NCBI RefSeq assembly: GCF_009914755.1
Contig: NC_060936.1
Origin: the human T2T-CHM13v2.0 reference genome, Homo sapiens
Strand: one strand, 5' to 3'
DNA length: 64,000 nt
Each line of letters starts with the position of its first letter. Position 1 is the stretch's first letter. The notes beneath the pieces are model-generated. The model was given only the letters and a program-made list of their open reading frames with translations, did no database searches and had not been told where the DNA came from. The translations under genes and the position numbers were made by a program. This document shows positions 51,210-64,000 of the stretch, piece after piece.

Positions 51210-51420
51210 CCAGGAAACAGTGAGAAAGGCGTCGAATTTGGAGTCAAGAGACCTGGATTCAAGTTCCAGGCCTGCCACTTTCTAGATATTACCTCAGACA
51301 CATTATTTAATCTCTCTGAGACCCATGGCTCATTCAGAGAAAGGTATTAATTCTCTCACTTGATTTTGAGAGGAACTGTGTGGCAAGTGCTTTACCAAAT
51401 TACAGAAATGTTGCTTGTTA
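51210..51420 (+). mobile_element. MIR immediately upstream of the OR10P1 acceptor
   Basis: ttggagtcaagagacctggattcaagttccagg...ttatttaatctctctgag. Confidence 0.7.
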
Positions 51421-51471
51421 TTTCTAAATAACTTCTCTTCTTGGCTGTGCCTCAGCTTCTGGCCTGGAGTG

Positions 51472-52413
51472 ATGGCTGGGGAAAACCATACTACACTGCC
51501 TGAATTCCTCCTTCTGGGATTCTCTGACCTCAAGGCCCTGCAGGGCCCCCTGTTCTGGGTGGTGCTTCTGGTCTACCTGGTCACCTTGCTGGGTAACTCC
51601 CTGATCATCCTCCTCACACAGGTCAGCCCTGCCCTGCACTCCCCCATGTACTTCTTCCTGCGCCAACTCTCAGTGGTGGAGCTCTTCTACACCACTGACA
51701 TCGTGCCCAGGACCCTGGCCAATCTGGGCTCCCCGCATCCCCAGGCCATCTCTTTCCAGGGCTGTGCAGCCCAGATGTACGTCTTCATTGTCCTGGGCAT
51801 CTCGGAGTGCTGCCTGCTCACGGCCATGGCCTATGACCGATATGTTGCCATCTGCCAGCCCCTACGCTATTCCACCCTCTTGAGCCCACGGGCCTGCATG
51901 GCCATGGTGGGTACCTCCTGGCTCACAGGCATCATCACGGCCACCACCCATGCCTCCCTCATCTTCTCTCTACCTTTTCGCAGCCACCCGATCATCCCGC
52001 ACTTTCTCTGTGACATCCTGCCAGTACTGAGGCTGGCAAGTGCTGGGAAGCACAGGAGCGAGATCTCCGTGATGACAGCCACCATAGTCTTCATTATGAT
52101 CCCCTTCTCTCTGATTGTCACCTCTTACATCCGCATCCTGGGTGCCATCCTAGCAATGGCCTCCACCCAGAGCCGCCGCAAGGTCTTCTCCACCTGCTCC
52201 TCCCATCTGCTCGTGGTCTCTCTCTTCTTTGGAACAGCCAGCATCACCTACATCCGGCCGCAGGCAGGCTCCTCTGTTACCACAGACCGCGTCCTCAGTC
52301 TCTTCTACACAGTCATCACACCCATGCTCAACCCCATCATCTACACCCTTCGGAACAAGGACGTGAGGAGGGCCCTGCGACACTTGGTGAAGAGGCAGCG
52401 CCCCTCACCCTGA
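51472..52413 (+). CDS. OR10P1: Olfactory receptor 10P1, intact 313-aa 7TM receptor
   Basis: MAGENHTTLPEFLLLGFS; LHSPMYFFL, MAYDRYVAICQPLRY, HFLCD, KVFSTCSSH, PMLNPIIYTLRN; acceptor cctcag ends 51455; protein recognised. Confidence 0.95.
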   Translation: MAGENHTTLPEFLLLGFSDLKALQGPLFWVVLLVYLVTLLGNSLIILLTQVSPALHSPMYFFLRQLSVVELFYTTDIVPRTLANLGSPHPQAISFQGCAAQMYVFIVLGISECCLLTAMAYDRYVAICQPLRYSTLLSPRACMAMVGTSWLTGIITATTHASLIFSLPFRSHPIIPHFLCDILPVLRLASAGKHRSEISVMTATIVFIMIPFSLIVTSYIRILGAILAMASTQSRRKVFSTCSSHLLVVSLFFGTASITYIRPQAGSSVTTDRVLSLFYTVITPMLNPIIYTLRNKDVRRALRHLVKRQRPSP

Positions 52414-59975: not shown

Positions 59976-60262
59976 CTACAACCCAGCCTTCTGGTCAGCC
60001 TTCCTTAGCCAGCTCCTTATCCTCTACTCCTAGACTTTCCACTAAAAGAAAGAAATCTATTCTCTTCTTTGATGTCCCCTACTCCCAAGGACAGACATGG
60101 GCTTTTTGCTCCCTGGTATTCATAGTGTACTTCCAGTCCAAATATGTCCCACCCAGTCCTTGGTAAACTGAGGAAAAGTAAGTTTGTGTCTTCATTGGAT
60201 CCTTTCTGCATCATAAGAATATTAAGTATCTATACCTTCCCCATTCTTCTCTTCCTTGCCAC

Positions 60263-60755
<493 letters not shown>

Positions 60756-60774
60756 AAATCAGTGTTATTTTAAA

Positions 60775-61270
60775 GGTCTCAGCACAGGCCGAGAATCCAG
60801 CCGGAAGTAGCGGGTGGTGCTGCGCCGCAGAAGGGCAAGGTGAAGGCGAAGCGGGCTCGGAAGACTAGGGCTCCTCAGGTAGTAGAATGCAGCGGCCGGC
60901 AGATGGCGTCACAGCGGCGGAGGCCATGGCCCTGCGCAAGCGCATTCGGCGATGCCAGGGAGGGCGAAGAAACCCAGCAGCGGGAAGCCGCCTACCGGTG
61001 GGCTAGTGCGGCGGGGGAAGGGAATCGGCCTGCATCCGAGACTCCGCCGCTGTGGCGTGGGACCTCCCCTAAGGAGAAGTGGTGCAGGAGGAAGTGCGTG
61101 GGCCAGCGCAGGCAGAGGCTGCCAGGGCGAGGACGACGATCAGGGAGTTGTCCAGCAGGGTCACCAGATGTTTGCAGAGCACTGCCCAAAACAGAAGGCC
61201 CCGGACGGAACCAAAACCTGAGAGCACCAACAAAACAAGCTCAGTCATGCTGTGCCATTGCCACCGCCAT
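60775..61270 (-). pseudogene. OR10AE3P: OR10-family pseudogene, 5' half only (N-terminus to ECL2), multiple frameshifts
   Basis: Minus-strand pieces TELVLL.LSGF...LVTLLDNSLI, PTHFLLHHFSLGEV (PMYFFL-like), RCDAICRPLH, FTLPFCG, PVLR; acceptor ctccag ends 61286; symbol from recalled synteny. Confidence 0.75.
60781..61210. promoter_or_regulatory. CpG-island-like segment with ETS, YY1-like and NRF1 motifs
   Basis: 33 CpG in 60781-61140 (hand count); CCGGAAGT 60801-60808, AGATGGCG 60901-60908, TGCGCAAGCGCA 60933-60944. Confidence 0.6.
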
Positions 61271-62154
61271 GTCCCCAAGGCCAGACTGGAGGACGGGGCC
61301 AGAGGAGGGCTCGTGCTGCCCCAGGAAGCATCCAGGCAAAGACAAAGGCCGCAGCAGGAAAGCTGTGGGAGAGGCCACAGGAACAGCCCAGCTCTCCTTC
61401 CCGCCCAGAAAACTCCTCTGAACAGGAAGATTAGCCAGGGGAGTTGAGGGAAAATGGCAGGACCTTCCTCAAGGCTGGGGACCTAACGGACACCAGGGTG
61501 GTTCCACTCACCCGAGTTCTGGGCTCTAGGAGCAAAGAGCTGGGACCAGCGGGACAGCTGCCTTTGAGAAAGTGGTTGAGAATATGGGCAGAAAAGTGGG
61601 TGAGCAGACAGAATAAAGCTGACAGGAGATCAGAAGAAAAATGGATCCACCATGAGGTGGAGAGTGAGTGGGAGTGAGAGCAAGAGTGAGAGAGAAGACA
61701 GGATCAAAGACCACGGATAAAGGCCTGGTGGGGCTTCACCTTCAGATGGGGCCCCTCCTGGGCAGCCCTCGCAGCACCTCAATCTCCCCAAGAGCCTAGT
61801 TCGCAGAGCAGAGAGTGGGGAGGGAAAGTAGGCAAGGCAAGATGAAGAAGGGGGAATAAAGTTTTGCCCAGGGACCAGGGAAAAGGAAGTGACTTTCTCC
61901 TGCCTCATCACTGTGCCTAAGCTCCTAGGTCTAGAGTCTCCATCCCAAACAGTGGAGAGACTACATGAGGAGGGGGCTGGGATTTATTTGCGGTCCGTCA
62001 GCAAGGCCTGAATGAAGCTGGGCTCAGAAACCAAGTGTTTCAATGCCTTGGCCGATTTCTATCTGCTAAACTGCCCAGTCCATTGCCCAAAGGGCTGCCT
62101 TCTGCCTTTGTGGCCCATGCGTAGAATTATTCCCTAGCTTAGCTGCCTTCTTCT

Positions 62155-62321
62155 TTTATATATATATAATTTTTTTTATGAGACTCTCTGACACCCAGGT
62201 TGGAGTGCAGTAACACAAACACAGCTCACTGCAACCTGAAACTCCTGGGCTTAAGCGATCCTCCCACTTCAGCCTCCCAAGTAGCTGACACTACAGCACA
62301 CACAACCACATCTGGCTAATT
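62155..62321 (-). mobile_element. Alu right monomer (FRAM/AluJ)
   Basis: ggagtgcagt...ctcctgggcttaagcgatcctccc...tggctaatt. Confidence 0.85.
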
Positions 62322-62337
62322 CTGGAAAGCACTTTTT

Positions 62338-63809
62338 TTTTTAATTTTTTTAGTATTTATTGATCATTCTTGGGTGTTTCTCGGAGAGGGGGATTTGGCA
62401 GGGTCATAGGACAATAGTGGAGGGAAGGTCAGCAGATAAACATGTGAATAAACGTCTCTGGTTTTCCTAGGCAGAGGGCCCTGCGGCCTTCTGCAGTGCT
62501 TGTGTCCCTGGGTACTTGAGATTAGGGAGTGGTGATGACTCTTAACGAGTATGCTGCCTTCAAGCATCTGTTTAGCAAAGCACATCTTGCACCGCCCTTA
62601 ATCCATTTAACCCTTAGTGGACACAGCACATGTTTCAGAGAGCACGGGGTTGGGGGTAAGGTTATAGATTAACAGCATCCCAAGGCAGAAGAATTTTTCT
62701 TAGTACAGAACAAAATGGAGTCTCCTATGTCTACTTCTTTCTACACAGACACAGTAACAATCTGATCTCTCTTTCTTTTCCCCACATTTCCCCCTTTTCT
62801 ATTCGACAAAACCGCCATCGTCATCATGGCCCATTCTCAATGAGCTGTTGGGTACACCTCCCAGACGGGGTGGCGGCAGGGCAGAGGCACACCCCACCTC
62901 CCAGACGGGGCGGCGGCTGGGCGGGGGCTGCCCCCCACCTCCCCGACGGGGCGGCTGGCTGGGTGCCCCCCACCTCCCGGACGGGGCGGCTGCTGGGCGG
63001 AGACGCTCCTCACTTCCCAGACTGGGCGGCTGCCGGGCGGAGGGGCTCCTCACTTCTCAGAGGGGGTGGCCGGTCAGAGACGCTCCTCACCTCCCAGACG
63101 GGGTGGCGGTGGGGCAGAGACACTCCTCAGTTCCCAGACGGGGTCGAGGCCTGGCAGAGGTGCTCTTCACATCTCAGATGGGGTGGCGGGGCAGAGGCGC
63201 TGCCCACATCCCAGACGATGGGCGGCCGGGCAGAGACGCTCCTCACTTCCTAGACGGGATGACGGCCGGGAAGAGGCGCTCCTCACTTCCCAGACTGGGT
63301 GGCCCGGCAGAGGGGCTCCTCACATCCCAGACGATGGGCGGCCAGGCAGAGACGCTCCTCACTTCCTAGATGGGGTGGCGGCCGGGCAGAGGCTGCAATC
63401 TCGGCACTTTGGGAGGCCAAGGCAGGCAGCTGGGAGGTGGAGGTTGTAGCGAGCCGAGATCACGCCACTGCACTCCAGCCTGGGCAACATTGAGCACTGA
63501 GTGAGCGAGACTCTGTCTGCAATCCCGGCTCCTCGGGAGGCCGAGGCTGGCAGATCATTCGCGGTCAGGAGCTGGAGACCAGCCCGGCCAACACGGTGAA
63601 ATCCCGTCTCCACCAAAAAATACGAAAACCAGTCAGGCGTGGCGGCGCGCGCCTGCAATCCCAGGCACTCAGCAGGCTGAGGCAGGAGAATCAGGCAGGG
63701 AGGTTGCAGTGAGTCGAGATGGCGGCAGTACAGTCCAGCCTCGGCTCGGCATCAGAGAGAGACCGTGCAGAGAGGGAGAGGGGTGAGGGGACAGGGGAGA
63801 GGGGAGAGG
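62338..63809 (-). mobile_element. Full-length SVA (older subfamily, SVA_A/B-like)
   Basis: T-tail plus tttatt, SINE-R (62355-62850), GC-rich VNTR (62850-63390), antisense Alu-like (63390-63755), degenerate hexamer repeat; TSD acttttt 62331-62337 / 63810-63816 followed by AA. Confidence 0.95.
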
Positions 63810-64000
63810 ACTTTTTAAAAATCCTTTTGTAAAACAGTGCTAATCTTCAAAGAAAACCACTGAATGAGAAACAGGCCTGACTTGTGGGAGAACTTCGCAA
63901 CCCAGCTGAGGGGTTCAGCCCACTCCCTAGCTGCTGCAAAAGATTTCAATATTGTCTGTCCTTTAGAAATAGGAAACATTTTCTTAGATCTGAGTTGGGG

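What the first reader, a model, noticed from the sequence alone, without database searches (positions are those of the whole stretch)
60781..61210. Dead OR pseudogene that looks like a housekeeping-type CpG-island promoter
Seen: the coding frame is badly broken, yet 33 CpGs remain in 360 bp, far more than in the intact OR10P1 or the OR6 pseudogene. Within 145 bp lie CCGGAAGT (ETS/GABPA), cAGATGGCG (YY1-like) and TGCGCAAGCGCA (NRF1). The ETS site falls where the OR HFFCD motif would be, so it may have arisen by mutation. Established: methylated neutral DNA loses CpG, and these three factors typify unmethylated, often bidirectional promoters. Inference: the pseudogene is germline-unmethylated and may have been exapted as a promoter or enhancer.
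Basis: partly seen in the sequence, partly recalled or inferred. Interest (0 to 1): 0.7.

Follow-up and report, generated by a model that had tools for sequence, protein, structure and literature searches.

The report
Dead smell gene became CpG island
The broken front half of a smell-receptor gene that is still intact in many non-primate mammals is now an unmethylated CpG island in humans, and it gained many of its CpGs and two promoter-type motifs after the gene died, likely through GC-biased gene conversion; whether it controls any gene is untested.

Summary
In detail: 33 CpGs in 360 bp and all three motifs are present. The segment is OR10AE3P, the human remnant of the Olfr9/Or10p22 receptor, intact in marsupials and many placentals; no primate is named among 120 listed relatives. 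It is a catalogued CpG island: a published table row matches its composition to six digits and gives 3% methylation in sperm and 7-21% in four other methylomes, class 'BGC'. It is also a RefSeq enhancer. Against the ancestral protein the core shows 27/90 A,T-to-G,C versus 6/61 reverse changes, and 14 of 36 CpGs cannot be ancestral. Three other receptor pseudogenes and the adjacent L1 decay towards AT. Retention-only simulations never reach these counts. The NRF1 site needed a frameshift plus an amino-acid change, and the ETS site one amino-acid change; the YY1-like site is ancestral codons. Most likely this is an orphan island built by GC-biased conversion and then kept unmethylated. Promoter activity, factor binding and a target gene are not shown.

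The parts
60776..61270 (-). OR10AE3P: remnant of the Olfr9/Or10p22 receptor coding sequence, codons 1 to about 187; ATG at 61270; 8 small frameshifting deletions, about 53 nt lost in TM4 near 60850-60865, 3' half absent
   Evidence: tblastn, frameshift-aware alignment, tree; C-terminal half not found in the window
60790..61138 (.). CpG island, 349 bp, 33 CpG, GC 67.9%; hypomethylated in five human methylomes; accelerated, GC-biased core
   Evidence: supplement row id 5393 of PMC4121359; substitution spectrum
60933..60944 (+). NRF1-type site TGCGCAAGCGCA, made from codons C112-C113-L114-L115 by a 1-nt deletion and a T>G change (Leu115 to Arg)
   Evidence: 0 of 75 clade members have Arg at 115; motif consensus recalled; binding untested
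60801..60808 (+). ETS/GABPA-type site CCGGAAGT over codons H176-F177-L178; needs Leu178 to Arg (T>G); a weaker CAGGAAGT form may have pre-existed
   Evidence: 0 of 75 clade members have Arg at 178; weak form in 19% of simulated ancestors; binding untested
61090..61095 (+). second ETS core GGAAGT (GGAGGAAGTG, PU.1-like by recall), made by Phe62 to Leu
   Evidence: 3 of 75 clade members, tree shrew among them, also have Leu62, so it may predate gene death
60900..60908 (+). YY1-like cAGATGGCG; compatible with ancestral A125-I126-C127 codons, not a derived feature
60762..61221 (.). RefSeq functional element 'enhancer' (460 bp); source assay not given
   Evidence: hub annotation; length fits 50-bp bins at 10-bp steps used in ATAC-STARR-seq, an inference with a 1 in 10 chance match
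61271..61370 (-). upstream flank orthologous to the flank of intact Or10p22 genes; GC-rich, CpG-poor
   Evidence: translates like the N-terminal extensions of hyena P0091, jerboa P0082 and P0137; composition
60254..60751 (-). L1 fragment that abuts the truncated OR, with a partial Alu at about 60578-60695; 6% diverged from related copies, AT-biased decay
   Evidence: family names L1 and Alu recalled from sequence features

Best explanation
This is an orphan CpG island, unmethylated in sperm and soma, that lies in the remnant of the Olfr9/Or10p22 receptor gene and gained G+C, CpGs and its NRF1 and CCGGAAGT motifs after the gene died, likely in early primates and likely through GC-biased gene conversion. 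Steps: (1) shown: the gene is intact in marsupials and many placentals and broken in human; inferred: loss in the primate or primate-colugo stem. (2) Shown: a ~370-bp core took up A,T-to-G,C changes about three times as often per site as the reverse; inferred: a local recombination hotspot fixed them once purifying selection was gone. (3) Shown: a frameshift and two amino-acid-changing transversions created the NRF1 and ETS motifs. (4) Shown by published methylomes: the island is now hypomethylated; inferred: CpG density (CxxC proteins) plus NRF1/GABPA binding keep it open, which stops CpG decay and may itself attract PRDM9-independent recombination. (5) Inferred: it behaves as a biochemically active proto-enhancer or weak non-coding promoter with no demonstrated target.
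For: Orthology: best tblastn matches are Or10p22-clade proteins, 56-63% in the first frame against 39-49% for OR10P1 proteins; tree places it inside placental Or10p22, 98/94; flank matches. Spectrum: core W>S 27/90, S>W 6/61, Fisher p 0.004; whole 30/117 vs 8/76. Controls: three other OR pseudogenes pooled W>S 19/249, S>W 34/158; on the same kind of site OR10AE3P has 15/52 and 5/33, p 0.004; adjacent L1 7/227 and 14/124; human OR10P1 4/248 and 9/198. Core is 51% identical to the ancestral protein (58/113) against 79% (33/42) for the N-terminal part, p 0.003, while orthologues are about equally conserved in both. Simulations: methylated neutral decay gives 3-5 CpG, unmethylated neutral 13-17, neither reaches 33 CpG or 27 W>S in any of 150 runs per setting; a GC fixation bias of B about 2-3 does; a burst followed by methylated decay gives 11-12 CpG. 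Independent label: 'BGC' class and cluster I (stably hypomethylated), intergenic, in PMC4121359 supplement. No CAP-seq island in mouse between mm9 chr10:128.37 and 129.88 Mb (that Olfr9 lies there is recalled). gBGC at hypomethylated sites in many mammals including ring-tailed lemur: PMC11161765 passages.
Against: The bias is narrow: no W>S excess in the L1 that begins 40 bp from the last CpG (1/38 in the nearest 57 sites, 6/189 beyond) or in the N-terminal 130 bp (3/27 vs 2/15; core vs N-terminal W>S only p 0.08). Either the episode predates the L1 or it is very focal, and the 'BGC' label rests on simian genomes of the last ~35 My, which fits 'predates the L1' poorly. With the strict filter the internal contrast is weaker (22/88 vs 6/52, p 0.08). 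PMC11161765 warns that GC* needs many substitutions and is unsuited to single loci. No PRDM9 13-mer inside the island (one degenerate match at 61264). Both motifs arising under neutral GC bias is rare in simulation (1% each, 0 of 600 together), which leaves room for selection, though the test is post hoc and has no indels. Ancestral bases are inferred from proteins only; simulation rates are my assumed values; about 4 of the 14 'gained' CpGs lie next to inferred gaps. Primate orthologues could hide inside 90% clusters.
Confidence: 0.62

Rival explanations
1. True exaptation: once the motifs arose, selection built and now keeps the island as a primate promoter or enhancer for a neighbour (OR10P1 8.4 kb away, TMT1B/METTL7B 35 kb away) or for an unannotated RNA.
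For: RefSeq enhancer coincides with the island (hub annotation); hypomethylated in five methylomes; NRF1 plus strict ETS together in 0 of 600 neutral GC-biased simulations; bias confined to the island; only island between hg18 chr12:53.27 and 54.39 Mb; OR10P1 is listed as atrial-appendage enhanced in GTEx (PMC7438927 passage), unusual for an OR.
Against: No RefSeq transcript starts here; no paper names OR10AE3P; W>S changes are spread over the whole core, not only the motifs, as expected from conversion; survivorship explains motif richness in islands that stay open; a second RefSeq enhancer (51309-51810) sits on OR10P1 itself.
Confidence: 0.2
2. Simple retention: a CpG-rich OR exon became unmethylated and kept its CpGs while the frame decayed.
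For: Hypomethylation is real; 21 of 36 CpGs are compatible with the ancestral protein; 12 intact against 1 decayed CpG at determinable sites.
Against: 14 of 36 CpGs are incompatible with the ancestral protein; W>S exceeds S>W threefold per site; unmethylated neutral runs give 13-17 CpG and 8-14 W>S, never 33 and 27; intact human ORs hold at most 16 per 360 bp.
Confidence: 0.06
3. The GC gain happened under a still-living but decaying gene, or is partly an alignment artefact: a GC-rich primate allele plus misplacement of gaps inflates W>S and 'gained' counts.
For: Only protein outgroups; the profile that guided the alignment came from the same clade; the branch is long, 1.26; strict filter p 0.08; intact OR10P1 shows 7/106 W>S against a generic OR profile.
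Against: The same pipeline gives AT-biased spectra for three other pseudogenes, one equally diverged (27 of 94 sites); an independent generic profile reproduces the bias (15/52 vs 5/33); changes hit near-invariant residues (M59, Y60, C179); an independent primate-genome method labels it BGC.
Confidence: 0.12

Closest known systems
'BGC' CpG islands of Cohen, Kenigsberg and Tanay 2011, as tabulated by Zeng et al. 2014 (PMC4121359; section 8, passages and supplement rows seen; the 2011 paper itself was not held)
   Same: This island is in the table, labelled BGC, cluster I, intergenic.
   Different: BGC islands are enriched in the methylated or variable clusters II and III; this one is stably hypomethylated, and nobody there notes that it is a dead receptor exon.
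Lineage-specific orphan CpG islands and proto-enhancers (Kocher et al. 2024, PMC11170920, passages seen; Illingworth et al. 2010, PMC2944787, mouse supplement seen)
   Same: Intergenic island absent in mouse, enhancer-annotated, gBGC proposed as one route of gain.
   Different: Substrate is a former protein-coding exon, so each new CpG and motif can be traced to a codon; that study lists pseudogenes among features filtered out in parts of its analysis.
Promoters made from coding sequence of retrocopies (Okamura and Nakai 2008, PMC2386082, passages seen; category II, WDR21B/C)
   Same: Degenerate coding sequence turned into promoter-like DNA.
   Different: Those are retrocopies with mapped start sites and a gene to drive; ORs were excluded; here the gene died in place and no start site is known.
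Housekeeping CpG-island promoters with NRF1, GABPA and YY1 sites (established knowledge)
   Same: CpG-rich, unmethylated, TATA-less look, NRF1 and ETS consensus matches.
   Different: Short (349 bp), 3-21% methylated against about 1% in neighbouring promoter islands, no GC or CCAAT box, no annotated transcript, YY1 match is incidental.
Olfr9/Or10p22 receptor clade
   Same: Sequence, flank, tree position and neighbourhood to OR10P1.
   Different: Frameshifted, truncated at codon ~187; the human name OR10AE3P hides this orthology.

Membership tests
CpG island (Gardiner-Garden and Frommer) | at least 200 bp, GC at least 50%, O/E at least 0.6 | tested here: met
   349 bp, 67.9%, 0.84-0.87
CpG island (Takai-Jones, recalled thresholds) | at least 500 bp at GC 55% and O/E 0.65 | tested here: inconclusive
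   core is 349 bp; an 820-bp interval passes only by taking in the neighbouring Alu and L1
Orphan CpG island | unmethylated in germline and soma | tested here: met
   published values sperm 0.034, ESC 0.068, PBMC 0.071, fibroblast 0.117, cortex 0.215; row identified by exact GC and O/E match
Orphan CpG island | no annotated transcription start nearby | tested here: met
   'Intergenic'; no transcript in the hub's RefSeq table; GENCODE and FANTOM not seen
BGC-type island | excess of weak-to-strong substitutions | tested here: met
   27/90 vs 6/61, controls, published label
BGC-type island | present or past recombination hotspot | not testable with these tools
   no maps available; no PRDM9 13-mer inside the island
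Housekeeping CpG-island promoter | mapped transcription start and stable transcript | tested here: not met
Housekeeping CpG-island promoter | bound by NRF1, GABPA or YY1; H3K4me3 | not testable with these tools
   motifs only; human CAP-seq/H3K4me3 table of PMC2944787 too large to read
Enhancer | reporter activity or target-gene effect | tested here: inconclusive
   RefSeq 'enhancer' 60762-61221 (hub); assay not named; region lists of ATAC-STARR papers not among readable supplements
Exapted element | purifying selection on the new function | not testable with these tools
   no non-human primate DNA available
Olfr9/Or10p22 orthologue group | closest to that clade by sequence, tree and flank | tested here: met
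   long branch, alignment guided by that clade
Olfr9/Or10p22 orthologue group | intact seven-helix frame | tested here: not met
   frameshifts, TM4 deletion, truncation; pieces give no Pfam hit

The most novel reading that the evidence does not exclude
A primate-wide regulatory element was born in place from a receptor's coding exon: gene death released the sequence, GC-biased conversion built a CpG island, a frameshift and two missense changes wrote NRF1 and GABPA sites, and selection now keeps it as a promoter or enhancer for OR10P1 (atrial expression) or TMT1B/METTL7B.
Probability: 0.15. Interest if true: 0.75.

Novelty: new member of a known kind. Interest (0 to 1): 0.5.

Why it matters
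How CpG islands are born is still argued: conversion first, or transcription-factor binding and hypomethylation first. Here the starting sequence is pinned by a conserved protein, so each new CpG and each motif-making change can be placed on the primate tree and ordered. It is also the only island in about 1.1 Mb of this receptor cluster and could open chromatin beside OR10P1. The element itself is already catalogued as an island and an enhancer; the origin story is what I did not find in print.

Tried and rejected
Close paralogue or segmental duplication: DNA search of the own genome returns only the locus itself; the OR remnant at C1:158.72 Mb, taken by recalled position to be OR10AE1P, does not align with it. 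Rest of the gene beyond the L1: not found in the window. First protein search with the 51-aa frame found nothing; orthologues came through OR10P1 and tree-shrew queries. Repeat origin of the CpGs: no tandem repeat in the island; other CpG-rich spots nearby are Alu or SVA-like. Methylated neutral decay, unmethylated neutral retention, and burst-then-methylated models rejected in simulation. Literature: 0 papers for OR10AE3P; 32 for OR10P1, four read in passages with nothing on this island; searches on METTL7B enhancers, OR pseudogene islands, clone name, pseudogene exaptation, orphan islands with NRF1/GABPA and pseudogene-gBGC promoters listed no paper on this locus (listings only). Coordinate searches in supplements of PMC5630026 (4 of 15 files not searched) and PMC5793779 (1 file not searched) found nothing. 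Not held: Cohen 2011, Bell and Vertino 2017, Franjic 2022. Bacterial promoter scan is irrelevant. A wider set of control pseudogenes from this cluster was not obtained, so the control rests on three.

Full report
Observation. The counts hold: 33 CpG in 360 bp from 60781-60790 onward; O/E 0.78 and GC 0.66 over the finding, against O/E 0.36 for OR10P1, 0.11 for OR6U2P and 0.18 for the window. Thirty intact human OR coding sequences, the best matches to OR10P1, hold at most 16 CpG in any 360 bp. The segment is single-copy in the genome by DNA search.

What the gene was. OR10P1 is the nearest human relative (63% DNA over 331 bp). A protein search with OR10P1 brought in a sister clade, Olfr9/Or10p22, which matches the pseudogene better, down to the GGGNGTA start and the upstream flank. 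A tree of 33 rows places the X-read-through inside placental Or10p22 (98/94), on a long branch. With the tree-shrew protein as query, the 120 listed rows (of 180) cover marsupials, afrotherians, rodents, lagomorphs, carnivores, ungulates, bats and insectivores, but name no primate or colugo in this clade, whereas the OR10P1 clade includes colugo, galago, loris, tarsier and monkeys. No unnamed row stands closer to the pseudogene than the tree-shrew protein. Clusters at 90% identity could hide a lemur copy. The N-terminal part has diverged 0.16 per conserved non-degenerate site, about the recalled neutral length of the primate lineage. Loss in the primate or primate-colugo stem is therefore inferred, not shown. 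The remnant has 8 deletions of 1-2 nt, about 53 nt missing in TM4, and ends near codon 187 at an L1 fragment.

What is already on record. The supplement of Zeng et al. 2014 (PMC4121359; I saw section 8, passages, and parts 1 and 164 of the table) has row 5393, hg18 chr12:54326255-54326604, 33 CpG, GC 67.90831, O/E 0.837181; window 60789-61137 gives exactly these two values. Methylation: ESC 0.068, fibroblast 0.117, PBMC 0.071, cortex 0.215, sperm 0.034; cluster I; intergenic; evolutionary class BGC. It is the only row between 53.27 and 54.39 Mb. The hub annotation puts a RefSeq enhancer on 60762-61221. Its 460-bp length fits the 50-bp, 10-bp-step bins of ATAC-STARR-seq in GM12878 (PMC9435738, PMC11019363 passages), but that is a guess and I could not see the region lists. 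The mouse CAP-seq table has no island from mm9 chr10:128.37 to 129.88 Mb; that this interval holds Olfr9 is recalled.

The CpGs were built, not kept. At codon positions fixed by residues conserved in at least 80% of 16 placental orthologues, and more than 3 nt from a gap, the core (up to 61140) has 27 W>S changes in 90 A/T sites and 6 S>W in 61 G/C sites (GC* 0.75, p 0.004); the whole remnant 30/117 and 8/76; a stricter filter 22/88 and 6/52 (p 0.08); the N-terminal part 3/27 and 2/15. Of 36 CpGs in the alignment, 14 cannot be read from any residue seen in two or more orthologues, 21 can, and 1 spans a gap; about 4 of the 14 lie beside inferred gaps. The core is 51% identical to the ancestral protein and the N-terminal part 79% (p 0.003), while orthologues are similarly conserved in both. 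Controls point the other way: OR6U2P, OR6C64P and the chr1 remnant pooled give 19/249 and 34/158, while OR10AE3P on the same generic profile gives 15/52 and 5/33 (p 0.004); the adjacent L1 gives 7/227 and 14/124; human OR10P1 4/248 and 9/198. In simulations with my assumed rates (150 runs per setting, no indels), methylated neutral decay leaves 3-5 CpG, unmethylated neutral drift 13-17, and no run reaches 33 CpG or 27 W>S. A GC fixation bias of B about 2-3 reproduces both, with or without methylation if it is continuous; a burst followed by methylated decay leaves 11-12 CpG, a burst followed by an unmethylated state 25-30. This agrees with the published BGC label, which came from primate genomes by another method.

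Where the motifs came from. NRF1: codons C112-C113-L114-L115 became TGC-GC-TTG-CGC-A through a 1-nt deletion and T>G; 0 of 75 clade members have Arg115. ETS: H176-F177-L178 became TAC-TTC-CGG through T>G; 0 of 75 have Arg178. Neither motif occurs in 600 simulated ancestors; a weaker CAGGAAGT form occurs in 19%. The YY1-like word occurs in 26% of them and lacks the strict core, so it carries no weight. After simulated GC-biased evolution each of the two motifs appears in 1% of runs and both in 0 of 600. This may mean selection, or only that islands which stay open are the ones that happened to gain such sites.

Mechanism. Most likely: gene death removed purifying selection; a local hotspot fixed G and C by biased conversion; CpG density and new NRF1 and ETS sites made the DNA resistant to methylation (established properties of CxxC proteins and these factors; binding here untested); hypomethylation then preserved the CpGs and could have drawn PRDM9-independent recombination, which PMC11161765 reports at hypomethylated sites in many mammals including ring-tailed lemur, though weakly in humans (passages). 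Unexplained: the bias stops at the island's edges, with none in the L1 (6% diverged) or the N-terminal 130 bp, while the BGC label reflects the last ~35 My. The same paper warns against single-locus estimates.

Function. Nothing seen shows a transcript, factor binding, constraint or a target. No GC box or CCAAT box is present. OR10P1, 8.4 kb away, is listed as atrial-appendage enhanced (PMC7438927 passage), a lead only; primate-specific brain expression of METTL7B is recalled and could not be checked. Supplements that I could not read (human table of PMC2944787, ATAC-STARR region lists, parts of PMC5630026 and PMC5793779) may hold chromatin data on this island.

Novelty. The island, its methylation, its BGC class and an enhancer annotation are on record; orphan-island gain by conversion (PMC11170920) and promoters from coding sequence (PMC2386082) are known ideas. 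That this island is the primate remnant of Or10p22, with CpGs and motifs traceable to codon-breaking changes, was not found in my searches. Verdict: a new, unusually readable member of a known kind; interest 0.5; 0.15 probability of a selected regulatory role, which would merit 0.75.

Noticed in passing
window 62302-63810: Masked, CpG-rich insertion with a 40-bp tandem array (62855-63396) and an AGAGGGG repeat (63769-63809); SVA-like by recall, 1.1 kb from the island.
   Followed up: partly
window 60578-60695: Partial, young-looking Alu inside the L1, flanked by AAGTTC on both sides; 1 private change in 77 sites.
   Followed up: partly
window 51472-52413: OR10P1 is GC-rich for an OR (GC3 0.78, 27 CpG), carries a RefSeq enhancer at 51309-51810, and is reported as atrial-appendage enhanced and near a heart-rate pharmacogenomic signal 7 kb upstream.
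   Followed up: partly
L034:6693-7246 (G000:C1:158.72 Mb): Old OR remnant, 3' two thirds only, taken by recalled position to be OR10AE1P; it does not align with OR10AE3P, so the shared subfamily name looks unsupported.
   Followed up: partly
window 60776-61270: All 10 inferred indels in the remnant are deletions, none an insertion.
   Followed up: no
L036:5600-6800 (about 6 kb past the window end): CpG-rich stretch beside PSMB3P1 is a nest of Alu copies, not an island.
   Followed up: yes
P0123, P0153, P0156, P0165, P0155, P0189: Several relatives in otter, walrus, sea lion and bats are labelled low-quality proteins and a fin-whale one is partial, hinting at independent losses of Or10p22.
   Followed up: no
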